Part shown: one piece after another, positions 12,158 through 41,229 of the stretch | How positions within the stretch are numbered: the stretch's first letter is position 1 | Layout: every line of letters starts with the position of its first letter | Assembly: GCA_043228905.1 (NCBI GenBank) | Contig: JBHGNT010000020.1 | Span: 12,586,001 to 12,650,000 of the forward strand | Origin: Azolla caroliniana | Lineage: Eukaryota > Plantae > Polypodiophyta | DNA: 64,000 bases | Reading direction: 5' to 3' | The notes under the pieces: generated by a model | Told to the model about the DNA's origin: nothing | The model's database searches: none | The model's input: only the letters and a program-made list of their open reading frames with translations | Made by a program: the position numbers and the translations under genes

Positions 12158-14029
12158 ATGAGGAAGGGTTCATCTATAGTCGAGTTTTCCCATTGTGCAA
12201 TATCAAGAAAGCCTACTATTGATTCCAAGGAGCTCCTTGTCAATGGATCCACATCTCACTCGATGCGCATCATGGAATACTCTCCTCCGACTTTTGATCC
12301 TAAGGTTCTCGAGTGGAGAGATGACATAATGATCAATAACTCGGAGGAACTAATGCATTTGGTACCATCTTCAAACCAATCAAACCATAATCATACTTCT
12401 TCTTCTACTACTACTACTACTACCACCACCACCACATCGAAGATTCCTAATAATGTAATGAAGCAACCTACTCGAACAGTCTTGGGAAACAAGTCTAGTC
12501 CATTCAAATCCATCCGAGAAAAGATAATAAGATCCTTCTCCTTCAAGGAGAAAAACCCAAAGCAAGTCAATGTTATTCCAAGAAAGGAGAAAGAAAGTAG
12601 TAGTACTACTAGGCAGGTAGTCCATACCTCGCACACGGATTCATTGCCTATCAATGGACCTCTTCAAGTCGGTATAGATTCATTCCGATCGGCCAACACT
12701 TACTCGGACATGAATGTGTTACCTCCTAGTATTGATTCTCCTCCTCGAGACAGTATAGATTCATTCCGATTCGCCGACACTTACGCGGTTCCCGATTCGT
12801 TGCCTACCAATGGGCCTCCTCGAGATGGTATAGATTCATTCCGATTGGCTGGCACTTCCTCGGTCACCAATGTGTTGCCTCCTAGTATCGATCCTCCCCC
12901 TCGAGATGGTATAGATTCATTCCGATGGGCCGACACTTACTCGGTCGCCAATGTGTTGCCTCCTAGGATCCATCCTCCCCCTCGAGATGGTATAGATTCA
13001 TTCCGATCGACCGACACTTACGCAATGGAGCAGCAAATGGCGACCAATCTGGAGGAGCGAGCTAGAGAATTGGAAGAACGAGTGAGCACATTCGAGCACC
13101 AATCCCGAATGATGAGCATCAAGGGTCAAGCTCCTTATAACACGAGCTCGATCCGAGAATGTTTAATGCAATACTCCGAATCCAGTGATGATGTGAGTAC
13201 AATAAGTGAGTTAGAGCTCATTAAGAGGTGTGTTGAGGAGAAGAGAGATCTTGCCCTAGAGTTAGCTTCCGAGATCCGAGCTCGGGCTGCTGAACGGGCC
13301 AGCTCGGATGAGGCCCTTCGCAATATGAAAGCAGATATGGAATTTAAACTCAAGCTCCTTCAAAGAGAGAATGAAGTGAAGGTCCGAGAAACCATAGAGG
13401 AGATGGAGTCAGAGTGGTCTATGAAGCTCGAGGTTGCGATGTCCAAAGGCATGAAAACACGAGAGAGATTGAATAGGATTGCCCAAGAGAAGGTGGAGCT
13501 ACACAAGGAAATCTCTTTGTTAGCATCGAAGAAGAATGAATTGGCGGAGCGAGTGCATGAATGTGAGGAGACAATCAAGGCATTGAGAATGAGCAAGGTG
13601 GGAAGCATGGGATCGAGCTCACAAGAGAAGGAGGAGTTGCCATGGAGTGTTGTTGCCCTAAAAAAAGAGTATAGGGAAAAAGAGGAGGGGCTAGTAGAGA
13701 AGCAAAGTGAGTTGGAGAAGGTTTGCAATGAGAAGGTGAAAGCTTTGCAAAGCCTAAGACTTGTCCTAGGGGAGCAAACCAAGTGTCGAGAATTCGGATC
13801 GTTTAGTGAGGATCTAATGACAATGATTCGGATGGAGATGGCGAGGCTTTCTGGTATTGAGCACGCATTGAGGCAAGAAGTTGAAACCCACAAGAAAGAG
13901 ACACTCGTTGATCGAATGGAGAATAGTGGCCTCATGGCCGAGAGTTTGGGTGGCATGACGAGAAATGATAGCACCGTTGGATCAAGATATCATGTATCCC
14001 TCGACAATTTGGAGGATCATATCAAGATG
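12158..14029 (+). CDS. Exon 1 (624 codons) of a plant coiled-coil protein resembling the Arabidopsis At3g55060/At2g39300 family
   Basis: Long clean ORF. Motifs EEKRDLALEL..EIRARAAERAS, SEWSMKLE and MEMARLSGIEHALRQEVE are recalled from that family. Phase-0 donor ATG|GTATGC at 14029/14030. Confidence 0.85.
12630..13025 (+). repeat. In-frame tandem repeat in exon 1 (5 copies, units of 25-27 aa)
   Basis: Core TATAGATTCATTCCGAT at 12673, 12754, 12829, 12910 and 12991 (spacing 81, 75, 81, 81 nt); peptide PPRDGIDSFRxADTY. Confidence 0.93.
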
Positions 14030-14555: not shown

Positions 14556-14705
14556 TTCTGTTGTAGGGAAAGTGAAGAGGTCAAGATGCTTCATCATGAT
14601 ATAAGGGGTCTCGTGCAAGAACGAGACAAACTCCAACAAGAGATGAACAATCTCCATTCTGCACTCACACTTACAAATCAAACAATCAAGGACCTTGAAA
14701 GACGG
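14556..14705 (+). CDS. Exon 2 (50 codons) of the coiled-coil gene
   Basis: Acceptor ttttctag|TTC and donor CGG|GTAAGA, phase 0/0; encodes FCCRESEEVKMLHHDIRGLVQERDKLQQEMNNLHSALTLTNQTIKDLERR (heptad pattern). Confidence 0.8.
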
Positions 14706-26195: not shown

Positions 26196-28889
26196 AAAAA
26201 CTCCTAGAACTTGAAATAGATAATCTGCTATAATATACATAACATGACCATGTATTTGGATGTATTGGTTAGAACATAACACTTGACTATAATACAAGAG
26301 GTCAAGAGTTGAAATCTTGACATGATTGGTGTCATGTCTGTGACAATTACTTGTAATTTTCTTAAATTATCATCATAACTTCGACATAAATTGTAGTATC
26401 ATCAGCAAACTCGGAATCCAAGAATTGTTGCTGCATTGAGGGCAAAGGCGGACCCTTAAGAGAAACTTGAGAAGACTTTAAATACATTGAAAATGTTTCC
26501 ACTACTAGCAAAAACAAAAATGGGGCCAATGGACAACCTTGACGTATAGAATGTAAAATAGAGAATTTTCTAGTTTGCCCACCAGCTACCAAGACCGAAC
26601 TAAAAGCCTCACGATACAACGAAGCTACAACCCTAATCCATTGGACAAGAAAATCTAACCTAAAAAACGAACCTGCCATGAAGTCCCAATTAACTCCATG
26701 AAGCTACCTTGCTATTGGTACTTGGATGGATGTTGAAGCCATAAATGTTCAATCAATGCTACATTGAATCTAGAATGCAGGTATATCCATCCACATGGTA
26801 CTCACATATTAGGCATTCTTAAACTTGTAATCCTGGCATCCTTAAACTTGTATCTTTGCATGGGAATCACCCACATAAATTATCAACTTGATAAGAAGGG
26901 TAAAGCTAAATGGAATTTTAAGGCATATTACCTTTCAAAAGGACTAACTTATAATACTTAGACAAACTAATAATAAGGATGGAGCTTCCCATAGCCTTCA
27001 TCCATGGAACTAGTAATCCATAAGGTCAATACAAATACCTTTTGTCGGTGTTCATTTCTTGTACCAAAGAAATGATTGGTTAGCATCCATCAATAAAATT
27101 GTATAGGCTATAAAAACCCAAGAAAATGCATTGAAGTTTTGGAGTTGATAGAGTTTCTCAATTGCATTAAGGTAACAAGAAGAATCTCAAAGATTTGAAG
27201 GAAGATGTTGGTTTAATAGAACTTAAGAGATGTTCACTAATATAGGAGAGTGCTTTTTAGTTAATAAGGTGATATATCTAACTTTTGAAATGGTATTGTT
27301 GGTTGGTGGTGTGGAAGGTTGTAAAAGATTATTTTCGCACATGTGATAGAGATAAAGTTAGACCAACATGCCGATCGGCCACATCAATTTTAGCATTCCT
27401 CGCCCATTTCCTGACCTTAATTTGCTTCATCAATGTCCATGGATTTCCTTGATGAACCACCAACATCTTATCAACTTGATAACATTATTTTTGTAGTTGC
27501 ACCATAAACCATGTGGGTCACAACTTGTCTTTATGGTTTTGGTAGACATTATTTTCCGCCACATGCTCTTTTTCTTCTTAAAATCCTTGTAATATCTACA
27601 TACGAGGACAATAGATTGTAAGTATCGACCTCTTTTATCAATACAAAATTTGGACATTTAGCCATTATTATGCATGATCTTTGTCGTTAGGTAATCTTAA
27701 GTCCTATAAGTTGAGATAGACTTTGTTGCATATTCCTTGTGTATGGTCTTCGAAGTAATGTGTGTTTATTACGATGATTCACTATTGTTACAAACCACAT
27801 TTGTCATGCAATTTGTGTTTGGACACATTTGTGGCGTCTTCTTGATTCATCACTTATAATTGTGTTTTTTGTTAATAGATTTTCTATTTCTCGTTATAGT
27901 TGTAGCTTATTGAACCAATAAAAGACAATGCATCAAACAATCCTTCGTTCCTGAACATGATGTAATGCATGAGTTTTGAGTATTGGTTAATGCTTGACAT
28001 GAGTATGAGGATGCCAAAACAGTTTGTACAAATGTTATTTTCTCTCTTGAGTTTTTTAAAAAGTTGCTTGTTAATGCTTAACAAGTATGCTAGGATCTAA
28101 ATGTTGTACTAAAACACAATGTTGAGACCTCCATGAGAGTGTGGAAAATGGCGACCTTTATCTGATGAATAATATCAAGATATCTACATTCCATGAGCAT
28201 GAACAACATCTTAACAAAGATAGAGTTTGGACACATATTTCTCCAAAAGTGGTTGTATATATAAACTTTTTTGCATGTTGGACATCGTCATTGTCATGCC
28301 AAGTGAGCCTCTTGTTGGAGTGGAGGATTTAGAACTGCCTTGTGATTCTTAATCTTAAGGTTTGTTGTTAATCTTGGGTTTCTTAATAGAGAAAAACTAG
28401 TTATAATTGGTGGCATGGGATCTACATAGCATGGTTGGTCAAACATTGAATCACCATTAGTATGTAAGCTAAAGGATTTTGATGACTTTTGGAAAGTACA
28501 TTGATCTATTCATGGCTTGGATGAACACTATCATATCGAGGCGTCCTCTAGAATTGTATATTATGAGAGAGACATCCAATATTTTAGGGAAGTAAAAACT
28601 GAACTCTAATTTTTCTAGACAACTTACTCTCAAAGAACATATCCTTATACACATTGGTGCCTTGTAAACTTTTAGTATTGTAACATTTCATAGTAAACTT
28701 CTTGAACATCAAGAGAGAATCATCAACTATAACATATGGTGGGTATCATGATATGGCAAGACTCAAACCCATGACCTTATGTTATATGGGTCAAGCTCTT
28801 GACCATTATACCATCTATTATAATACGTAGGATATTATTTTCATTTAAGTTTTATTATAGGAAATTAATGTATTTTCCAGATTTCTCTG

Positions 28890-28934
28890 GAACATTCTAG
28901 AAGCTTCAGGATTACTCCTGAGAACACTATAAAA
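28890..28934 (+). promoter_or_regulatory. Perfect 4-unit heat shock element plus TATA box in the chromovirus LTR (HSE copy at 35277-35294)
   Basis: GAAcaTTCtaGAAgcTTC at 28890-28907; TATAAAA at 28928-28934. Confidence 0.75.
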
Positions 28935-29041
28935 GAAGGCATTAGGCATTATTTTGAACCAAATTGGTTCAACGCCAGTCTTAAGACTCATAGCCCTTTT
29001 GTACTTACTCTTCACATAATATATCCTCTGTTATCATCATC

Positions 29042-29090
<49 letters not shown>

Positions 29091-29215
29091 CTCGCTATCT
29101 CTCATCCTCGTTATCTCTCTCTCTCTCCTCTTCTCTCTTCCTCTCTCGGGAGTCTCACGCAGTCCCGTCCTCTTAGTACTAATAGTACTTCCCTTTTTTA
29201 AGTACTAATTCTCTC

Positions 29216-29391
29216 TTGTTCCAAGGCAACAAATTTTTCTTTTAGACATTGTAGCTCGGAGAAAACAGATTGATATGCTTGGGCGCTAACAGTAGCCATA
29301 GTATAGTAAAAAGGGTAGGAGGATGAAGAAAAACGACAAGTAGACTTGAGGGAAAATTGGTTCAAACTATCAGGAATAGTACTAAAACAGA
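29216..29391 (-). other. 176-bp inversion containing the 5' LTR end, PBS and first 28 gag codons
   Basis: The reverse complement restores the LTR end matching 39406-39430, PBS GTTTGAACCAATTT, and ATG MATVSAQAYQSVFSELQCLKEKFVALEQ in frame with ENQRLIGDLQQ at 29392. Confidence 0.93.
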
Positions 29392-32300
29392 GAAAACCAA
29401 CGATTGATAGGGGATCTGCAACAAATCGCTCTCAAAAAACAACAAACACAGCAACAACATGGGGAGTTAGCGTTACGGGTACAACAACTCGAAGTAGGGT
29501 TGCAACAACAAGGATCAAGTCCCCAAGGATTTCATAAAGAGCCCAAGATTGGACTTCTTGTGAAATTTGATGGAACGCGATCACAATTCATGGGATTCCT
29601 TAATCAGGTACGCTTAGTCATCCAAATGCATCCTTCTCGATACCCATTGATGCATCCCGAGTCGGCCTAATAGGCACGTTGTTTAGTGGCTCAGCCTTAG
29701 CATGGTTCGCTCCGCTTCTAGAAAAACAATCGCCCTTGCTTAATAACTTTGAAGACTTTATTAGTGAGTTTAAAGCCTGCTTTGGAGATACCGACAACAT
29801 CCGGACAACGATCAACAAAATCCGACGATTGCGTCAAGGCGATCGTCCAGCCTCTGCCTACGTGGCGGATTTCCCTCTACTCGCCTGAGATATCTCTTGG
29901 GATGATCAAGCACTAATAGAGCAGTTTCGCTATGGCCTGCGAAACGATGTCAAAGATTTACTTTTAACCTTCCCCGAAGAACCAAAGTCTCTTACGGAGG
30001 CAATTAGTCAAGCGGTCCAATGCGACAACCGCCTTTTTGAACGGCATTTGGAACGTCAATTACAAATACCACGCTTTAGGGCGGAGCCCACATACGCCTC
30101 AATTGTGGCTAAACCGTTTGCACGCGACGTACCTCAAGCAAATACTTCGACATCGATGGAGATTGACACCATGCGTCTACGTGACCCATTATTGGAAGAA
30201 GAAAAACAACGATGACGTGCAAATCGATTATGTCTTTATTGCAGTGGACCAGGGCATATTGCAATCAATTGTCCCCATAGGCCAAGAAGACAGGTAAATC
30301 AAATTGTAGCCTGTACTAAACCCGAGTCAATTCTTCCCTTAGGAGTATCTAATAGTATTAATAATACTAATAGAGTGTCTGATAGTATTAATAGTACTAA
30401 TAGCCCAAGTATCTCAAATAAATTTGAAATCCTTAGTCAATTCGATGAAGAGTTAAACGATTGAGTCCAGCCAAAATAGGAGCCGTTCTGTACAACCCAT
30501 TAGTGGTTCCATTCCCTCCAAGCAAGTTAGCAATGTGTTCCTAGCCCAAGTCATGGTTAGTACTAAAAGTACTCCCCAAGTACATGTCCTAGCACCTCAA
30601 GATTGTGGAGCTAATTCCTGTTTCATGGATCGAAATTTTGCCCAAGCTTCTCAGATATCCTTAAGAAAACTTCCGTGCCCCACATCTGTAGTAGTCATTG
30701 ATGGTCGTCCCATTGCTTCCGGGAATATTGTAGAAGAGTCAGAACCCATTCAAGTTGTCCTAGGTAGTTTTGTGTGTGTAGTATCATTTAATATAATTAG
30801 TAGTCCAGAGCATCCCATTATCCTGGGATTACCTTGGTTTGAATTACATAATCCCAACATAGATTAGAGAACAAGAGAAGTCCGATATCGACAACCCCAA
30901 GAATCTACTCATCGAGTTTCGACCATTTCACTCCATCAATTATGCAAAGAAGGACACAAGGAGGCAATGTTCCTATTTGCAATATCAGTACATCCTTCCA
31001 GCACTATTAAGGAGGAATCCCTAGTGCAACGTCCGACAAAATATCATCCTTATGCCGATGTATTGGACAAGGTAAAAGCCGGTACTCTTCCTCATCATCG
31101 TCCCTATGATTGTCCCATCGATTTACAACCAAGAACAGAGCCACCATGGGGACCAATTTACAACTTGTCACCCACCGAGTTAGAAGTCCTTCGAGCCTAC
31201 ATAGAGGAGAACTTGACAAGTGGGTTTATTCGTCATTCGAAATCTCCAATCAGTGCACCCATCTTCTTTGTCAAGAAGAAAGATGGCTCACTTCGTCTCG
31301 TCGTTGATTACCGCAGCTTGAATAAAGTCACCATTCGGAATAGGTATGCACTTCCTCTTATATCAAGTCTTTTAGAGCGAGTTAATGGTGCCAAGGTTTT
31401 TACAAAAATTGATCTACGAGGAGCGTATAACCTCGTGCAGATCCGACCGGGAGATGAATGGAAGACCGCCTTTCGCACGCGGTATGGGCATTTCGAATAT
31501 ACTGTTATGTCGTTTGGTCTAACCAATGCACCTACAGTCTTCCAACACATGGCAAATGATATATTCAAAGAACTCTTGGATATCTGTTTGATCATCTATC
31601 TGGATGATCTATTGATTTATTCGAAGACCTAGGAAGAGCACGATTCTCATGTACTATTAGTACTAAAACGATTCCGCGAGAATGGTCTTTATGCCAAGCT
31701 AGAAAAATGTAGCTTTGACTGCAAGCAAGTGGAATTTCTAGGCTACGTCATCTCCTCAAAGCGCATCTCCATGGATCCAGCTAAAGTCCAAACTGTGCTA
31801 GAGTGGCAAATTCCACGGTCGGTATGAGATGTACAATGTTTTCTAGGTTTTGCTAACTTCTACTGCAAGTTTATACAGGATTACTCGAAGATTATTTTAC
31901 CTCTCACACAACTTACGAAGAAGGGACAAACATTTCTTTGGACCAATGAAGCGGACATGGCTTTTCGGCATCTTAAGAACGCCTTTACATCAACTCCTAT
32001 TCTAGCACAAGTGGATACAAACAAACCATTCATCATGGAGGCCGATGCATCGGATTTCGCCCTAGGTAGCATCCTTTCTCAACAAGGAGATAAAGAAAAG
32101 TTACATCCTGTGGCTTTCCATTCGCGCAAATTCGATGCCGCAGAAATCAACTACGAAATACATGACAATGAGTTATTAGCCATCGTGGATTCCTTTGTGC
32201 AATGGCGGTATTTCTTAGAGGGCTCTCCACATCAGGTCATCGTCTTTAGTGATCACAAAAATCTTGCTTATTTCCAGAACGCTCAGGTGCTAAATTGACA

Positions 32301-33371
32301 GCAAGCTCAGTGGGCTCAATTCCTCACGTGTTTTGACTTCAAAATCACATATCGACCGGGGAAGCAGCAAAGAAAAGTAGATGAGCTATCACGACGTTCA
32401 TATCTTGCACCTTGTCCTGGTGATCCAGCGTTTGATAATCAAAAGCAAGTAATCTTGGGACCAAGACGATTGCACACAACACAGATTTTTCACACCCCAA
32501 TGGATTCCCGGATTACCGATGCCATACGTGCGAACTTGAAGATAGACAGTTTTGCTCAAGACATTCTGGCGCACATTGATACCTCTTGGGCATCCTGTTC
32601 CCAATCTCAACAACCAAGTATGGACTACCGAAAATTCGAACATCATGATGGTTTGTTATTCTTTAAAAAGCTTGTATATGTCCCCGATTGCTCCTATCGC
32701 CTTCAAATCGTCCAAAATTGTCACAACACCCATATGGCAGGACATTTCGGTAGTACTAAGACGTTGGACCTCGTTCAACGATCTTTTTGGTGGCCCCATA
32801 TGTGACGTTTTGTCAACGACTACGTTCGGACTTGTGATGCTTGCTGCCGAGTAAAGATGCCCCGACACCATCCATATGGCTTGTTGGAACCCTTACCGAT
32901 TCCAAGTAAGCCGTGGCAGTCTATTTGTCTTGATTTTATCACAGATCTACAGGTGTCGAAGGGGTTCGATGCTATCTTAACCGTCGTCGATCGATATACT
33001 AAGATCACACATTTTGTGCCGTGTACTAAGGCCATCACTAGTGAGGAAACCGCCGCCCTTGTCATGCATGAGGTATTTCGGCATCACAACCTCCTAGACA
33101 GTATCATCAGTGACCGAGGACCTCAATTCGTCTCCAAATTTTGGCAGCATCTCTTCGAGATGCTTAAGGTCTCTTACAACTTGTCCTCCGGCTACCATCC
33201 CCAGACCAATGGGCAGGCGGAACGAACAAACCAAACGCTGGAACAATATCTCCGGTGTTTTCTGAGTTATCAACAGGATGATTGGACCGAGATTCTCCAC
33301 TTTGCGGAGTTTGCATATAATAATGTTGTTCCCTCCTTGACTCGGGTCTCCCCATTTTACGCTTATACCAG

Positions 33372-34333
33372 TGTTGCGGTATTCCGCGGGTATGTGTAGG
33401 ATCTTAGGCGGGACCGCGGGGGTCTTGAACTAGGGAGACAGATGGTAGAGTCCTTATGCTTTGCAGGCTTCGGTCCAGAACCGGCTTCCGGCTCCAACGA
33501 AGGTAGGGTTTCACAAAAGGACGGCTCACCGCGAATATGGACCCGACTCAAATATGTTACAAGGAAGATAGATATACACTAACATGAATATATATAACAA
33601 GAGTTTACAACAAGACGGTTACATGCCCCGAATCTAGTGGCTATTACAAACAATCGGCTAATACATCAAGATAAGAATGGGAACTGGCGAAGGGGAGTCA
33701 AGTGGGCCGCCGGGACCGCGATGTCCACCGTTGGTCACACCCCGAAGACGATGGAGTGTTCCCGTCTCGAACCGGCCGCCACACAAAACGCTCTCCATCG
33801 AGGAGAGGAAGCCGAATCACCAAGTGCCGCCACCGGAATGCCTAAAGCTGTCGTTGTAGGAACCCCCAAACCAAACCAAACTCTCACACGAAGAAGAGAG
33901 AGTAACACCCGGAGACCCCAAGTACATAAACCCTAACTCGCACGAACTCTCTCAAGAAGAAGAACCTAAAGAGAATACTAACTTCCACCCAAAAGAGGGA
34001 ACCAAACCTATCAGAAAATGAAGAAGAAGACTCAAATGAAACCCTAAACGAAATAGAGTGAAAAGACCAAAATGGAAACCCTAAGAGAACAAGAATAAGA
34101 TGTAGAGGAAGAACACTACCAAACCCTAGACCTAAGTGGTATACCCTCCTAACTCCAAAATGGGCAACCCTTTAACAAAGGGTGCTCCTTTCCTTTTATA
34201 GAACAAGGAGAGGGATGCGTTACAATGTGGGATAAATACTCCCCCTTATTCTATACACCGTTTCCTACTATACATGTGCAACATGTGCCCATTCCACCCC
34301 TGTTTCACACTATAGCCGGAAATCTTCACGACA
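33372..34333 (-). mobile_element. Solo LTR (962 bp) of the 4-bp-TSD gypsy group, inserted in the chromovirus integrase
   Basis: TG..CA termini similar to the LTRs at 52586 and 55352; 34140-34240 is the reverse complement of ~55490-55590; TSD CCAG/CCGG; removing it restores YAYTGSHP. Confidence 0.88.
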
Positions 34334-34544
34334 CCGGTTCTCATCCTCCTTGGTTGGTTAGTGATCGACACCCCGGAGCTACCTACCAATCCTCATGCCG
34401 AGGCGTTTCCTACTATACATGTGCAACATGTGCCCATTCCACCCTTGTTTCACACTATAGCCGGAAATCTTCACGACACCGGTTCTCATCCTCGTTGGTT
34501 AGTGATCGACACCCCAGAGCTACCTACCAATCCTCGTGCCGAGG
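34259..34544. repeat. ~143-bp tandem duplication spanning the solo-LTR/integrase junction
   Basis: cgtttcctactatacatg...gccgagg at 34259-34403 and 34404-34544. Confidence 0.92.
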
Positions 34545-35135
34545 ATCATTTGGAGAGGCTACACAAGATCCAGATAGATATCTCTACTCATCTTCGTCAT
34601 GCTCAACACAACACACAGAAGACTTATGCGGATCGTCATCGGCTTCCCTCCTCTTTTGCCATCGGAGATCGACTATGGCTCTTACGTCGTCACATCAAGA
34701 CTACTCGACCGTGCGACAAGTTGGATTATCGACGACTCGGTCCTTTCCGTATTACTAGTAAGGTTAATGATGTGACGTTCCGCCTTGATCTCCCTCCGCA
34801 TCTTCAGATACATCCGGTTTTCCATAGCTCTCTTCTTGAACCTTATAAAACAAACACTATTCCCGATCGTGTTACACCACCACTACCCCCGCTTGAGTTG
34901 GAAGCCGGCCCGGAGTATGAAGTTACTGCCGTCCTCGATTCCAAACTTGTTCGCAACAAACTTTATTATTTGGTCGATTGGCTCGGCTATAGTCCGAGCG
35001 AACGTACTTGGGAACTTGTCGAGCATGTCGCCAATGCTCAGGATCTTCTTGCTGAGTTCCACCGAAAGTATCCGGACAAACCCGGTTCGCAATTAGCGCC
35101 GACTCGTTCCACTCGTCGTCTTAAGGGGAAGATAG

Positions 35136-35205
35136 TGTCATGGCAAGACTCGAACCCATGACCTTATGTTATATGGGTCGAGCTCTTGACCATTACACCA
35201 TCTAT
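35136..35205 (-). other. tRNA-like (Pol III A/B-box) module at the start of the chromovirus LTR; copy at 28744-28817
   Basis: Minus strand reads AGA-TGGTGTAATGG-TCAAGAGCTCGACCCATATAACATA-AGGTC-ATG-GGTTCGAGTC-TTGCCATGACA, with tRNA-like A-to-B box spacing. Confidence 0.65.
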
Positions 35206-35428
35206 TGTAATACATAAGATATTATTTTCATTTAAGTTTTATTATAGGAAATTAATGTATATTCCAGATTTCTCTGGAACATTCTAGAAGCTTCAGGATT
35301 ACTCCTGAGAACACTATAAAAGAAGGCACTATGCGTTATTTTGAACCAAATTGGTTCAACGCCAGTCTTAAGCCTCATAGCCCTTTTGTACTTACTCTTC
35401 ACATAATATATCCTTTGTTATCATCATC

Positions 35429-35476
<48 letters not shown>

Positions 35477-35479
<3 letters not shown>

Positions 35480-38400
35480 ATTTTCTTTCTTTCTGTGCGT
35501 CTGTTTCTCTCCCTCCATCATTATCTACGTTCTATAGCTCCCTGGAAAGCTCTTTCAGAGAGATTTCTAACGAATGTTTATTTGCTAAATTCCGTTGCCG
35601 GAGTGAGGAGTTATGAGCATTTTCGTCCGCGGCCCTCTCGTGACCCCTCAAACTCAAGGTAGATTTTGAAACCCTAAATCGATTGAAAGGTACATTCTAC
35701 TTCTTCTATCATTTTATTAATAGTAAATATGCCAAGAGGAGTAAAAGACAATGATGATGTGATTGAAAGCCCAAACAATCAAATGCATACATTGTCAATG
35801 GAGAAGATCGCAACTATGTATATCTCATTTCAAGAGACAATGATGCATATGCAAAGTGAATTGTATGCTTGTAAGGAGAGGGAATTAACTCTTCAACATA
35901 CATTGGAAATGCAAAAGTTAGAGATGAAAGCTACTACATGCAATGAAGAACATGACTATTCAAATGCAAGATAATAGGATGCCTAAAATCGAAAGAAATT
36001 TTTTGAGTCTTGAAGCAGAAAAATCAGAGATTTTAGTGAAGGCAAATGCCGAAATAAAATCTACAATTGAAGGGAAGGAAGATGTGATCATGACAAGGTG
36101 GAAAGATGTTCTCTTGAAAGAAACACCAAAAATCACGCAAAAACATCCAAATACCATGGATGTGTTAGATGTAAAGGAGCAATATGAAATCGAAATCGAA
36201 AGAATAATATTGTCATTAGAGGTATGCAAGAGAATGAAATAGAGAATGCATTATCTCTTGGACAAAATATTACGAAATTCTTTGAGGATCACTTTGCTAT
36301 GCGAGATGTTATTGTATATGCCTCACATCGGGTTGGCAAAAAGCAACAAGAGGGAAAGACATCTCGAGCTATTGTTTGTACAATCCTCGATGAACGTAAA
36401 AGGGCAATGATTCTAGATAGTAGTAAGGTGTACTTAAAAGGGCAACAAAGGATAAAACTCCACAAGAGCAAGATTCGATATGGCCTGACTCCAAAGGGGA
36501 TATTGGGCGTGCTGGGATAACATGTATCTACCATGAGAGCTTAGATAGTTCTATCAAAGTATGCAAATATGATGGCTATAAGAGATACATATGGATAGAG
36601 GTTAATTTGGGGAAAGAGAAGTTGTATATAGTTGCATGTTATATTCCTCACAAAGACTCAAACTACTATAGTAGGTTTGGGTTAGATTGTGATGATCCTT
36701 TTACAGAGTTATGCTATGATATACTTTCATTTGAGAAGCTTGGTAAAGTTTTAATTATGGGAGGCTTCAATGCAAGAGTTGGAAATTTCCAAAATGTGGA
36801 GACATTTGAAGAAAATGTAGTAAAACATTGTCTATTGCGTGACTCAGAGGATTATGTCATGTCAGATTATGGAAAACTTTTGATACATATGCTAAATTGC
36901 ACAAAATTGATTATCCTAAATGGAGTAAAGGCATTCACATTGACAAACGTGCTCACATGTTTACCATCCTCAGGTGGAGGAAGTGTGGTTGATTATGTAT
37001 TAATGTTGGCATGTGATCTATCATTGGTGAATGTGTTTAAAGTTGGTTCGCTATCTCCGGACTCAGACCACACGCCATTGTACTTAGAGCTTGCAATTAC
37101 ACATTCCACTAGATGTCGTGAAGGGAAAGACGAAAAGAGATGTATCATCTGACCTTGCTACGAAGAGATGCTAGACTATGTACAAAGGTTATATATGCAT
37201 GAAGGTGTGGCTCCTATGGTTGAGAAAATTGAAACTCCATGCACTACATGTATCGATATTGAAGATATCAATAAGGGAATAAAGAAGATGGGAAGTGGGA
37301 AAGCAGCAGATTCAACCTAGGTCTCAAGTGAGCTTTTAAAATGGACAATGGCACACCCTCGTCATTGGATAATGACAATTTTAGAGCAAGCTATAAAACA
37401 AGGATTTCCAAATGATTGGCTTATGAATTGGATTAAACCAATATTTAAAGGTGGAGATAAGAATCAAGGAGCAAATTATCGTACAATAATGGTGAGCTCA
37501 ACTATTGCTAAATTATATAGTACTATTATGGAGCAAAAGATAAGCACATGGGCTAAGAGTACAAGCAAAAGAGCACTTGGGCAAGCCGGATTTAGACCAA
37601 AACACTCCACCATGGATCATTTGGTCACATTAAAAGTGATCATGGAAGAGAGTCGACTACAAGGAAGAACACTTTATTGTTGTTTTGTTGATTTCAAGAA
37701 AGATTTTGATATCGTACCACGAAGTGAGCTTTGGAATAGAATGGTAGACATTGACATGCCATTAGAGTACCGAGTTGCGGTTGCACGCCTATATGAACAA
37801 GTTAAATGCCAACTAAAAATGGATAGTGGATTCTCAAAGAGCTTTTTAAGTAACATGGGGGTCAAGCAAGGATGTCCACTATCACCCACACTCTTTGGCT
37901 TATGTATTGATAAATTAGAAGAAGTGGTGAATAAGGTTTCAAGAGAAGAAGGATTGAATGACCCAATTTGATGCAACATGTTATCTTATTGCTTCTATAT
38001 GTAGATGATGTGGTACTCTTCTCATATGATGTTGATAGTATGCAACATTTACTTGGGGTATTAGAAGAATTTTGCCATAGTAGTGGACTAGCAGTGAATG
38101 TGGAGAAAACAAAAATGATGGTAGTGCAAACCATCCAACCTCATCATTACCCTATGATCACATATAAAGGTGAACATATAAAATTTGTTCAAAGCTTTAA
38201 ATATCTTGGTATTGATGTACCTGCCACAAATAAATGGAGTGCATGCTTTGATTCTAGACTCCAAGCCGGTTGGAAATCATATTACCTTTTGGAGAACCAA
38301 TGCAACCAAAGTGATACTTGTGGATGGGAAGTAAAATTAATGTTGTTCAATGCCATGGTAACTCAAGTATTGCTTTATGGAGTAGAAGTATGGGGTGACG

Positions 38401-39329
38401 CCATCTCTCTTAATGCATGGAACGAGATTGAGAAAATTCAAAAGATGTTTTTAAGGAGGCAATTAGGAGTTAAATGCACTACCTCTTACCAGGTTATGCT
38501 CTTGGAAACGGGTGTTCGACCCATAGAACTATTGGCACTCCAAAGAGTATATAAATACATTACAAAAGTCAAGAATATGCCGAATCATCAATTACCACAT
38601 CTTTCTTGGAATGTTGGATGTAAGCTACAAAAGAATCATAAAAGTAAGATTCTCTCATCTGGTTGGGTTGTTGACATAAAGAAATGGTTTAGACGATGGG
38701 GTGTGGATGATCTTTTAGAGATTTCAGGCAATGCTATGCAATATGTAATGATTGAGGAAAGGTCGGTGGAATCATTAAGGATGAAGTGGGAGGATGCTAA
38801 GAGGACAAAGCTAGAATACTACATTGCAAATGTCAACCCTGAATGTTGGTCTCAATATAAAGCAAGAATGTCTATTGATCGTATCCAACCTTATCTCATT
38901 ACCAATATGAGTAGGAATGCTCGTAGAGCCCTTACACTACTTCGCACTCGATCTCACAAGTTAGGTATTGAAGTTGCATCATGGTATCAAAATGTAACGA
39001 ATTTGAAGACATGTAAAGTATGCAATGAAGGCATGGTAGAGGATGAATGTCACTTGCTCTTCACATGCTCGACATATAGTGCAATTTGTTCAAGATATGT
39101 TGACATACTAAGAGGGAGTGATAATTGAAGATCCATACTTAAGACACCACCTAGAAGGTTGAGCTCATATGTGTATGCTTTATTAACACATAGAGACTTT
39201 GTGGTTCAACATATGAATACCCCTTCTTAGGAAGGAGACATATATCAAGAACACATGTATACTCTGGTCCCATAGGTCAAAATTGGCCTCTTTATGGACG
39301 ATTCTAATTCTAATTCTAATTCTAATTCT
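35477..39329 (+). mobile_element. Near full-length two-ORF LINE (RTE-X/L2-like) inserted in the (CT)n tract of the chromovirus 3' LTR
   Basis: Coiled-coil ORF1 fragments 35729-36520; AP endonuclease (MGGFNARVG, SVVDYVL, SDHTP); RT (KQGCPLSP, LLYVDD); CX2C..EDE.H.LF.C motif; (AATTCT)n tail; LTR resumes at tcctctctcgggagtc. Confidence 0.93.
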
Positions 39330-39666
39330 TCCTCTCTCGGGAGTCTTACGCAGTCCCGTCCTCTTAGTACTAATAGTACTTCCCTTTTTTTAGTACTAAT
39401 TCTCTCCCTGTTTTAGTACTATTCCTGACAGTGGGAAGGTATTCTAGTTTGGTTTTCGTCAATCATATCTGATCCCCAATAACGATAGAAACATATATCT
39501 ATGATGTGATTTAAACAACTCCAACTTTCTTAAAAATGTTACGTTGTGAGATAATATTCACACCTTATTTCCATAGGTTATAAATATTACTATTATTAAA
39601 TTGTTGGCATGGTCAATGATCTTGGATTCTCCTAGATGTCTTCCATGTGTGTCTATACTATATCTA

Positions 39667-40364
39667 TGTTACGGGCATGACCATATAATATCCCATGGTA
39701 AGTTGTATCATAGTATTCTACACACAAGGATAACTTGTGAGGGTTAACCGCGAGTTTAGAGAAGGGCGGATTACTTTTAATCCTAGGGATTGTTCAACAA
39801 CCCATTAAGGCCAAGTGTGAACTTGCTTGGGGGCCTTAGGTTCGTTTATAAATAGGAGGTCTAGCTACCCTCATTTGAGACATTATTGACTACGTCGAGA
39901 CTCTGATCTTGTGGTGATAAACTCTTGTAGCGAGCGTGCTAGCACCAGGTACGAGCCGTTGCCACAACGGTGGTGTGGGACGCCGATTGAGGTTTGAGTC
40001 CATCTCGACCCCTTCACTTGGGGGTGGTCGGGTGGATCAACACCCTTCTTTCTCTCTCTTCTCTATTTTCCTATCTATTATTTCCTTATATTTTGCTTAC
40101 ATTAGGATAAAGTTCTAACCATTGGTATCAGAGCCTCGACGTAGTCGATAATATATCAAATGAGGGTAGTTAGGCCTCATATTTATAGCCAGACCTAAGG
40201 CCCCTAGGCAAGTTTACACTTGGCCTTAATGGTTGTCTCAATCCCTAGTATCAAAAGTAATCCTCCCTACATTAAACCCTCGGTTAACCCTCACAGGTTA
40301 TCCTCGTGTGTAGAATACTACGATACAACTTACCACGAGATATTATATGGTCATGCCTGTAACA
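39667..40364. mobile_element. LTR-derived fold-back element: LTR + tRNA-iMet PBS + inverted copy of the LTR's first ~240 bp
   Basis: TGTTAC..GTAACA ends; TSD ATCTA (39662-39666 and 40365-40369); arms 39667-39907 and 40127-40364; TGGTATCAGAGC at 40123-40134. Confidence 0.9.
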
Positions 40365-40490
40365 ATCTATCTATACATTTAGACATGTATAAATGATATA
40401 TGTGTATATGCCTATTCAATATCTATTTTTATATGGTTTTTTGTTCATAAATAAGTCAATCTAATGTTTCATGACGGTTTTGGATTGTAG

Positions 40491-40721
40491 CTTACAGATA
40501 AGGAGAGAGAAACCCAAAATATATATGAAGAGCTAGGAAGAACTAGAGATCAAAGAGATGCTATGAAGAAGGATGCTGACTTCATGTGTCAAGAGGCCAT
40601 TCGACTCATGACCCAACTTGAAAAACTAAACAAAAGAGTAGAAAAATTGGATGATGAAGTAATGCTAAAGGATGGACAATTATCAATTCTTTTGGGAGTT
40701 CTTCAGAGTTCTAGTGATTAG
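40491..40721 (+). CDS. Terminal exon 3 (76 codons + stop) of the coiled-coil gene
   Basis: Acceptor ttttggattgtag|CTT, phase 0; encodes LTDKERETQNIYEELGRTRDQRDAMKK...KRVEKLDDEVMLKDGQLSILLGVLQSSSD*, resembling the family C-terminus KKIE.LDEDILLKEGQITIL as recalled. Confidence 0.8.
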   Translation, partial: LTDKERETQNIYEELGRTRDQRDAMKKDADFMCQEAIRLMTQLEKLNKRVEKLDDEVMLKDGQLSILLGVLQSSSD

Positions 40722-41229
40722 CCCTTTGGATAATGATGATTATTGAGGTTCACAAAACCTTCAAAATCCCTTCATCTTCATTCTTGAGATTAAGCTTCCC
40801 TAGAGTGGTTCTTTTCACTACCAAGTTCATTCAAGAAACAAACTCATGTCCCTAATTTCACTTTAAAGCCTATTTCGTGGCATGTACTATGTGTACAACA
40901 ATTGACTTCCATTAGCACTTGAAGGAACTCAAAGCCAATTGTTACCCTAGAACCACTTCTAGCCACACACATGTTTTCACTAAAAATGTACACAACATTT
41001 GTCATGAAGATGTAGCAGTATATGTAACATATATCTATGATTGTATGACGTCATATTTTATAAATTTCTTCATAATGTAAGAACTTTTGATTTACCTTAG
41101 GATTTCTACAAAAAATCTTGAACTAGGGATAATCTAACAAAGACGTAATTATTCATATGATGTGTACATCATATTAATTCAACCATTCTACCTTTAATTA
41201 CTACTTGAATGAGTTGGTCCATGTAGAAG

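What the first reader, a model, noticed from the sequence alone, without database searches (positions are those of the whole stretch)
39662..40369. Fold-back element built from an LTR: two U3 ends, one PBS, perfect 5-bp TSD
Seen: a ~455-bp LTR and a tRNA-iMet PBS are followed directly by an inverted copy of the LTR's first ~240 bp. The switch point is where an internal LTR sequence (CGAGACTCTGAT) is complementary to the PBS (ATCAGAGCCTCG). Both ends read TGTTAC and the TSD ATCTA is perfect, which indicates a single integrase event, yet the arms differ at roughly one base in six or seven by eye. Inference: either an aberrant strand-transfer product of two co-packaged templates or a self-propagating family with inverted ends. 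It lies 126 bp before the exon 3 acceptor and would form a long pre-mRNA hairpin that could yield siRNAs.
Basis: partly seen in the sequence, partly recalled or inferred. Interest (0 to 1): 0.8.

Follow-up and report, generated by a model that had tools for sequence, protein, structure and literature searches.

The report
Fern retrotransposon misfire with mirrored ends
A 698-base insertion in an intron of a gene, likely from a fern, carries the start of a common retrotransposon's end-repeat at both ends; it is likely a half-finished DNA copy that folded back on itself and was pasted in anyway, an error this family likely made again and again, rather than a new self-copying element.

Summary
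Real. 39667-40364 is a 454-bp LTR, a 2-nt spacer, a 12-nt PBS and an inverted copy of LTR bases 1-241, between perfect ATCTA repeats, 126 bp before exon 3 of a gene with a fern homolog. The parent is a high-copy Ty3/gypsy chromovirus. The long arm matches the dead-end plus-strand strong-stop DNA described for Ty1/Ty3 (12 nt of tRNA copied, then displaced); its 3' end pairs 7 of 8 with one site of its own LTR. The arms are same-subtype sisters that decayed about equally (16 vs 14 private changes, K2P 0.14), so age explains the difference. This junction looks single-copy in three runs. But 10 of 80 related loci are other two-U3 fold-backs (77-311 bp, different junctions, 5 perfect 5-bp TSDs), one a four-segment zigzag. 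Best reading: recurrent self-priming during reverse transcription, then integration by two U3 ends; not a self-propagating family. Same-molecule priming is not proven; siRNA and splicing effects are untested. The scan noted the same kind of insert in other genomes (unreviewed notes); ten literature searches found no description.

The parts
39662..39666 (.). Left target-site duplication ATCTA
39667..40120 (+). Long arm: complete 454-bp LTR (U3-R-U5 inferred) of a Ty3/gypsy chromovirus family; last base differs from the CA/TA end of other copies
   Evidence: 79-84% identity to full LTR copies L016, L017, L031, L032, L034, L061; family end at 40119/40120; parent integrase-chromodomain ORF runs into the LTR in L016
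39847..39853 (+). TATA-like box of the long arm (function not tested)
39896..39907 (+). Internal LTR site complementary to the PBS end; inferred snap-back priming site
   Evidence: best match in the LTR, 7 of 8 and 8 of 9
40121..40122 (+). 2-nt spacer between LTR end and PBS
   Evidence: 2-nt spacer also in L016
40123..40134 (+). 12-nt PBS (tRNA-iMet type; the tRNA assignment is recalled). Base 40134 is the PBS base, not the U3-templated base, so the switch lies at 40134/40135
   Evidence: same 12 nt in L016, then divergent; column 234
40127..40364 (-). Short arm: inverted copy of LTR bases 1-241 (first 8 bases overlap the PBS), ending exactly at the LTR's first base
40181..40187 (-). TATA-like box of the short arm, facing the long arm's (convergent layout; function not tested)
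40365..40369 (.). Right target-site duplication ATCTA
40461..40490 (+). Branch-point-like CTAAT and acceptor AG of the host intron, outside the element and intact
40491..40718 (+). Host exon 3 (last coding exon of a coiled-coil-like protein of unknown function)
   Evidence: 56% identity to the C-terminus of an Adiantum capillus-veneris hypothetical protein P0001
14706..40490 (+). Host intron (25.8 kb, packed with retrotransposons) that contains the element; splicing inferred from homology and phase
   Evidence: exon matches at 13220-13987, 14562-14699, 40491-40715; donor and acceptor phase 0; Pfam retrotransposon domains

Best explanation
This insertion is likely a dead-end plus-strand strong-stop DNA of a fern Ty3/gypsy chromovirus that primed on its own U3, was made double-stranded and was then inserted by the element's integrase using two U3 ends. 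Steps: (1) plus-strand synthesis from the polypurine tract copies the LTR and 12 nt of the primer tRNA, stops, and is displaced as a free single strand (shown for Ty1/Ty3, inferred here); (2) its 3' end pairs with LTR bases 234-241 and reverse transcriptase copies back to base 1 (junction shown, enzyme inferred); (3) a re-used polypurine-tract primer opens the hairpin by strand displacement, giving a linear duplex with U3 at both ends (inferred, no direct trace); (4) integrase inserts it with a 5-bp duplication (TSD shown, enzyme inferred); (5) the arms then decay neutrally. Earlier stalls that fold at other short complementary sites give the smaller fold-backs. Each copy is made anew; none has what it needs to copy itself through RNA.
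For: Long arm is exactly LTR + 2 nt + 12-nt PBS, the product described in PMC5371799 section 2.2 (read whole); the 12th PBS base is kept and U3-templated sequence follows. Parent has PPT, 2-nt spacers and a 12-nt PBS. 10 of 80 loci have facing U3 starts; 5 of 10 have a perfect and 2 of 10 a 4-of-5 direct TSD, against 2 perfect of 8528 cross-locus pairs and 1.6% for 4 of 5 or better; flanks are unrelated to each other and never mirrored (1-5 of 15 matches in 11 loci). 5 of 8 distinct junction types have a complementary run of 4-6 nt in the last 10 nt, against about 4% of random junctions (hand-placed). The same junction recurs in different subtypes (about 68/21 in L064, L079 and L004; about 98/50 in L041 and L050). 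Arms carry the same subtype in the window, L004, L039, L076, L080, and both arms of L022 carry a 5-bp deletion seen in only 1 other of 91 starts. L004 is four alternating U3 segments inside one TSD, as repeated self-priming would give. Arms: 14 shared rare states, 16 vs 14 private; several of the private states are also rare in the window's own species (other base in 91-99% of depth at the sites listed).
Against: The arms are no closer to each other (87.4%) than to the nearest other copy, L032 (88.3% and 87.8%), so priming on a sibling molecule cannot be excluded; in yeast 16% of ssDNA fold-back insertions were same-molecule and the rest not (PMC11724301 section 20, read whole). L041's arms lean to different subtypes. 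Arm divergence (0.14) exceeds all five LTR-like pairs in the window (0.003-0.086). An automated junction search found no exact microhomology in 7 of 8 elements (it counts from the terminal base, which is often mismatched), and 3 of 8 junction types stay weak by hand. The ssDNA minimum-energy fold of the long arm does not contain the PBS:U3 pairing. 3 of 10 fold-backs lack a TSD. Step 3 leaves no trace. The 80 loci come from low-coverage metagenome contigs of a related but unidentified plant; short fold-backs assemble more easily than full LTRs, so 10 of 80 overstates their frequency.
Confidence: 0.65

Rival explanations
1. Two separate cDNA molecules each gave a U3 end: either one strong-stop strand primed on a sibling strand, or integrase inserted two half-molecules whose free inner ends were then joined by microhomology repair.
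For: Arms are as far from each other as from L032; highest divergence of the pairs in the window; L041 arms lean to different subtypes; most yeast ssDNA inversions were not same-molecule. Gives the same TSD and microhomology.
Against: Subtype concordance in 5 of 6 clearly typed fold-backs, including subtype B (1 of 62 ordinary starts) in both arms of L039 and L076; symmetric private decay; the four-segment L004 would need four pieces. Siblings from one active locus would however look the same.
Confidence: 0.2
2. An ordinary inserted element was rearranged later on the chromosome: a host polymerase switched at the PBS microhomology, copied U3 backwards and switched back at the 5-bp inverted repeat shared by the two LTR termini, deleting the rest and keeping the old TSD.
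For: LTR termini are TGTTA and TAACA, so the return switch has microhomology; host fold-back synthesis at microhomologies is known (PMC11724301, abstract and section 20).
Against: Needs two switches per event (more for L004); none of 11 fold-backs nor the window runs into mirrored flank, which points to a free DNA end at U3 base 1; the long arm stops exactly at the 12-nt strong-stop position; mismatched primer ends are kept.
Confidence: 0.08
3. A self-propagating non-autonomous family with inverted ends (MITE-like, or copied through RNA).
For: Three junction types recur at unrelated sites; L018 and L076 share junction and rare subtype B.
Against: The window's junction has one spanning contig per run at single-copy depth and none listed in X7; absent from 80 loci; junctions and lengths differ; two of the recurring junctions occur in different subtypes; no PPT or second direct LTR in the element; arms decayed independently.
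Confidence: 0.05
4. Two independent insertions (or an assembly error) with a chance TSD match.
For: ATCTA is locally common; no contig spans the whole element; junction cover is borderline by the 31-letter rule.
Against: The inner joint is mid-LTR at a microhomology, with no LTR end or inner TSD; identical junction contigs in runs of three studies; 13% arm divergence rules out an amplification chimera; the same architecture with TSDs recurs.
Confidence: 0.02

Closest known systems
Dead-end plus-strand strong-stop DNA of Ty1/Ty3 (PPT recycling model; PMC5371799 section 2.2, read whole)
   Same: Long arm = LTR plus 12 nt copied from the primer; the product is described as displaced and accumulating in particles; PPT primes repeatedly.
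   Different: That section describes it as a dead end; self-priming, conversion to a two-ended duplex and integration are not described there. The model is from yeast, not tested in plants here.
Ty3/gypsy chromovirus solo LTRs and full insertions (REXdb, PMC6317226, passages)
   Same: Parent has integrase, SH3 and chromodomain; TG...CA ends; 5-bp TSD (93.4% of plant elements in that survey; L017 solo LTR has TATAT/TATAT).
   Different: Both ends are U3, repeats are inverted, a PBS is kept with no internal region or PPT. Clade not determined; Galadriel is a lead by elimination only.
Autointegration inversion circles in Arabidopsis virus-like particles (PMC7197481, passages)
   Same: Aberrant cDNA products with inverted LTR-adjacent segments.
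   Different: Those are circles made by integrase attacking its own cDNA and are described as non-productive; here the inner joint is a microhomology without an LTR end and the product is in the chromosome with a TSD.
Template-switch complex insertions in Triticeae (PMC1950507, abstract only)
   Same: An aberrant reverse-transcription product integrated as one unit.
   Different: There two parent elements are fused into a large complex element sharing an LTR; here one LTR is folded back on itself.
MITEs / fold-back DNA transposons (PMC10004981, passages)
   Same: Short, non-coding, long inverted ends, TSD, hairpin-forming, often in introns.
   Different: Ends are LTR U3 sequence with an integrase-type 5-bp TSD; copies do not form one family; no transposase link found.
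Microhomology fold-back inversions of ssDNA captured at breaks in yeast (PMC11724301, abstract, passages, section 20)
   Same: Fold-back at short inverted microhomologies on free single strands.
   Different: Captured by end joining at breaks; here both ends are exact LTR starts with a 5-bp TSD.
PBS-targeting microRNAs miR845 and miR1511 (PMC8824631, PMC9780303, passages)
   Same: An antisense transcript across 40115-40138 would be complementary to the tRNA-Met PBS that these microRNAs target.
   Different: No small RNA or transcript is shown for this locus; no Rfam match.

Membership tests
Ty3/gypsy chromovirus (parent family) | Integrase followed by a chromodomain; gag-PR-RT-RH-IN order | tested here: met
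   L016 ORF: rve (E 1e-7, just under the curated cut-off), Integrase_H2C2, SH3_Tf2-1, Chromo; 80-81% identical full-length relatives P0002/P0003 show the gypsy order. The link to the window is LTR homology (79%); L016 is a collapsed high-coverage contig.
Ty3/gypsy chromovirus (parent family) | Clade placement (Galadriel, Tcn1, Reina, Tekay, CRM) by RT/RH/IN phylogeny | not tested
   No reference set at hand.
Ordinary LTR insertion or solo LTR | TG...CA ends and 4-6 bp TSD | tested here: met
Ordinary LTR insertion or solo LTR | Direct LTRs, left end U3 and right end U5 | tested here: not met
   Right end is an inverted U3 start.
TRIM / non-autonomous LTR retrotransposon | Two direct LTRs with PBS and PPT between them | tested here: not met
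   One LTR, one PBS, inverted partial LTR; the parent's PPT is not in the element.
TRIM / non-autonomous LTR retrotransposon | Multiple copies of the same structure | tested here: not met
   One spanning contig per run; none in 80 loci. Table 8 shows only the longest pieces, so a few fragmented copies are not excluded.
MITE / fold-back DNA transposon | Terminal inverted repeats and TSD, no coding capacity | tested here: met
MITE / fold-back DNA transposon | Homogeneous multi-copy family | tested here: not met
   Eight junction types, 77-698 bp; only L018/L076 could be kin.
MITE / fold-back DNA transposon | Ends recognised by a DNA transposase; excision | not testable with these tools
   No genome held; no clean empty site seen.
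Ty1/Ty3-type dead-end plus-strand strong-stop DNA | Starts at U3 base 1 and ends after 12 nt of primer complement | tested here: met
   39667-40134; switch at 40134/40135.
Ty1/Ty3-type dead-end plus-strand strong-stop DNA | PBS copied from the tRNA rather than from the genomic RNA | tested here: inconclusive
   The 12 nt equal the parent's genomic PBS, so the two sources cannot be told apart.
Autointegration inversion product | A processed LTR end at the inner junction | tested here: not met
   Inner joints are mid-LTR or at the PBS.
Hairpin siRNA / MIRNA locus | Long stable RNA stem | tested here: met
   -444 kcal/mol, z -29.6 on 20 shuffles; longest run 19 bp Watson-Crick, 41 with G.U.
Hairpin siRNA / MIRNA locus | Small RNAs produced from the stem | not testable with these tools
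   No small-RNA data available to these tools for this locus.

The most novel reading that the evidence does not exclude
LTR retrotransposons routinely turn their dead-end strong-stop DNA into integrase-competent palindromes, so an active family seeds the genome with MITE-like hairpins of its own promoter. Copies like this one, with two facing promoters around R-U5-PBS inside a transcribed intron, would yield small RNAs against the family's LTR and against the shared tRNA-Met PBS: a one-step origin of self-silencing loci and of miR845/miR1511-like genes; some small versions (L018/L076 type) may even be re-mobilised as a family.
Probability: 0.15. Interest if true: 0.8.

Novelty: new variant of a known kind. 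Interest (0 to 1): 0.5.

Why it matters
If right, intermediates thought to be dead ends are integrated often enough to leave a fossil record of reverse transcription: the junctions map where plus-strand synthesis stalls, and this copy suggests that a plant chromovirus stops after 12 nt of primer as yeast Ty1/Ty3 do. It also means integrase accepts two U3 ends in vivo, that some 'MITEs' with TG...CA ends and 5-bp TSDs are retrotransposon by-products, and that retrotransposons have a one-step way to make long hairpins of their own promoter. This particular copy is old and shows no sign of function.

Tried and rejected
No whole genome is held, so no genome census. IMG/VR scans for the junction and for the LTR start: 0 hits each. 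No second copy of this LTR in the window. The look-up of sequencing runs: no RNA holder listed; not evidence on expression. Rfam on 39400-40750: no match at E<=1. Empty site: X3 and X7 hold a diverged contig over 40348-40550 that continues into sequence unlike the arm, and X7 has no cover of the left flank, so no clean empty allele could be read; X7 lists no piece across the inner junction, which does not prove absence. Automated microhomology calling failed to score most junctions and was replaced by hand-anchored junctions, which are open to bias. L022's 5-bp deletion, first taken as private, also occurs in L045. Ordinary LTRs as TSD control: 1 perfect TSD (L017) of the 6 copies not preceded by a PPT; two of these are collapsed high-coverage contigs. 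L050 (cut by contig end) and L010 (34 bp, no TSD) were found by eye and are not among the 10. Rejected: amplification chimera (flanks not mirrored, arms 13% apart); selection on the sense hairpin (11 G.U vs 10 A.C). Literature: ten searches gave no paper whose listing or read passages describe integrated U3-U3 fold-backs; most hits were seen as listings only. PMC6911290, PMC13570524, PMC10275265 and PMC12789967 were read as passages and added nothing. Garfinkel 2006, Borges 2018 and Lauermann & Boeke 1997 are not held, nor most subscription journals; no supplements were read, so prior description cannot be excluded.

Full report
Observation. The element runs 39667-40364, begins TGTTAC, ends GTAACA and sits between two ATCTA. 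Only a 5-bp duplication fits. The first 241 bases recur inverted at 40127-40364 with 208 identities, 21 transitions, 9 transversions and 3 gap columns. Between them lie the rest of a 454-bp LTR, a 2-nt spacer and a 12-nt PBS (40123-40134). Contigs identical or nearly identical to the window cross the left end in three runs, the right end in two and the inner junction in three, from three studies, though with 25-31 letters on the short side, at or below the tool's bridging rule, and with no piece spanning everything.

Setting. The 74-aa frame after the element has one homolog among 57 candidates, an Adiantum capillus-veneris hypothetical protein, which also matches 13220-13987 and 14562-14699. 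Donor after 14705 and acceptor at 40490 are both phase 0. So the element lies in a 25.8-kb, retrotransposon-filled intron of a gene, likely of a fern, 126 bp from the acceptor; the branch-like site and AG are outside it.

Parent family. Summed contig depth over the LTR is mostly thousands to hundreds of thousands against 10-46 on the flanks (not a copy number, but clearly a large family). A scan of metagenome contigs for the LTR start returned 80 loci (possibly a cap). L016 shows an integrase-SH3-chromodomain frame running through a polypurine tract into the LTR, followed by a 2-nt spacer and the same 12-nt PBS; full-length relatives at 80-81% have the gypsy domain order. The parent is a Ty3/gypsy chromovirus; the clade was not determined. 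U3/R/U5 limits are inferred from the TATA-like box at LTR base 181.

Why the arms differ. Against 57 ordinary copies (12-21 copies in the distal half), the arms share 14 rare states, differ at 16 left-private and 14 right-private columns, 2 columns rare in both, and 1 common polymorphism. At the arm sites listed the window's own species mostly has the other base (91-99% of depth at most of them). This is the pattern of two sisters decaying after insertion; K2P is 0.14, and a 5-bp TSD survives that with probability 0.51. Against: the arms are not closer to each other (87.4%) than to L032 (88.3%, 87.8%), and 0.14 is above the five LTR-like pairs in the window (0.003-0.086), so a sibling template is not excluded.

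One copy or a family. In one search each of X1, X2, X3 has a single contig across the junction, 100% identical, at flank-like depth; all other listed pieces start at 40126 or later. None of the 80 loci has this junction. But 10 of the 80 loci (35 had at least 130 nt of room) carry two facing U3 starts, 77-311 bp apart. Five have a perfect direct 5-bp TSD (L004, L018, L039, L064, L079), two match 4 of 5 (L022, L080), three do not (L027, L076, and L041, whose one end abuts the polypurine tract). Cross-locus pairs match perfectly in 2 of 8528 and at 4 of 5 or better in 1.6%. Flanks are unrelated and never mirrored, which excludes amplification chimeras. These are low-coverage contigs of an unidentified related plant, and short fold-backs are favoured by assembly and by the search, so the rate is overstated.

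Junctions. Placed by hand on real copies, 5 of 8 junction types (8 of 12 junctions) have a complementary run of 4-6 nt in the last 10 nt, against about 4% at random; an automated version scored 7 of 8 as zero because it counts from a terminal base that is often mismatched. Junctions recur across subtypes (L064, L079 type A and L004 type C; L041 and L050), which fits hot spots better than descent; L018 and L076 share junction and rare subtype B and could be kin. Arms agree in subtype in the window, L004, L039, L076 and L080, lean apart in L041 and are unclear in L018; L022's arms share a 5-bp deletion seen in 1 other of 91 starts. L004 holds four alternating U3 segments within one TSD, one turn lying at U3 base 1 itself.

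Mechanism. PMC5371799 section 2.2 (read whole) describes for Ty1/Ty3 a first plus strand that stops after 12 nt of the primer tRNA, is displaced by re-priming from the polypurine tract and accumulates as a dead end. The long arm is that molecule to the base: base 40134 is the PBS base and U3-templated sequence follows. Its last 8 nt pair 7 of 8 with LTR bases 234-241, the best site in the LTR; other copies in X1 and X3 have this favourable state too (loose ends), while none of the 11 copies does. I infer snap-back priming, copying to base 1, opening of the hairpin by another round of polypurine-tract priming, and concerted integration of two U3 ends. The last two steps are inferred from the TSD; the ssDNA fold does not show the priming pair in its minimum-energy structure. 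Priming on a sibling strand, or joining of two inserted halves, remains the main rival (0.2); yeast data show both routes for free single strands. A later chromosomal rearrangement using the TGTTA/TAACA terminal repeat would keep the TSD but should sometimes run into flanks, which 0 of 12 do.

Function. The sense RNA would form a very stable stem, and 139 of 218 24-nt windows have at most two unpaired positions. The two TATA-like boxes face each other across R-U5-PBS. But transitions split 11 G.U to 10 A.C, so there is no sign of selection on the hairpin, there is no Rfam match, and small RNAs and splicing were not testable. The host exons matched here keep open frames.

Novelty. Ten searches of the held library showed no description of integrated U3-U3 fold-backs, within the limits listed under Tried and rejected. 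Unreviewed notes of this scan report the same kind of insert in several other genomes; one pointed me to PMC5371799. I rate it a new variant of a known kind: a recurrent by-product of LTR reverse transcription, not a new mobile family. Interest 0.5.

Noticed in passing
L004:960-1137: Four alternating U3 segments (36, 65, 57 and 20 bp) inside one perfect TSD AAGTC; looks like repeated self-priming, with one turn at the LTR's first base.
   Followed up: partly
L041:1037-1235: Fold-back at a 3' LTR: polypurine tract, about 100 bp of U3 with internal duplications, then an inverted 60-bp U3 start against host flank; arms lean to different subtypes. May be an element whose right end is an inverted U3.
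   Followed up: partly
L011:1139-1287 and L023:2-149: Head-to-tail tandem U3 starts (125 bp and 106 bp units followed by a second start); no TSD looked for systematically.
   Followed up: no
L010:612-645: 34-bp fold-back (6-bp short arm), no TSD.
   Followed up: partly
L032:1669-2118: Solo LTR of the window's subtype flanked by CCCAA plus two extra bases on the left and CCCAA on the right; possibly an untrimmed end.
   Followed up: no
window 28745-39430: A second, unrelated gypsy chromovirus with TSD GTGGG; a LINE (about 35475-39326, ATTCTA-repeat tail) sits in its 3' LTR, and an inverted LTR-like insert lies at about 33374-34300. The LINE's last 1.1 kb has a 95% twin at 908-1992.
   Followed up: partly
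window 12131-40718: Gene for a coiled-coil-like protein with no Pfam family above cut-off and a single homolog found (Adiantum); its intron of 25.8 kb holds several nested copia and gypsy elements; the exon 1-2 junction phase was not resolved.
   Followed up: partly
window 40348-40550 (runs X3, X7): A diverged version of the right flank (11-12 substitutions, 16 gap letters) shared by X3 and X7 lacks the arm; X3 also holds the window's own left and inner junctions, so it may carry two divergent alleles or paralogs.
   Followed up: no
L018, L039, L076, L041: LTR subtype B is 1 of 62 ordinary starts but appears in 4 of 10 fold-backs; either an error-prone subfamily or kinship among small fold-backs.
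   Followed up: partly
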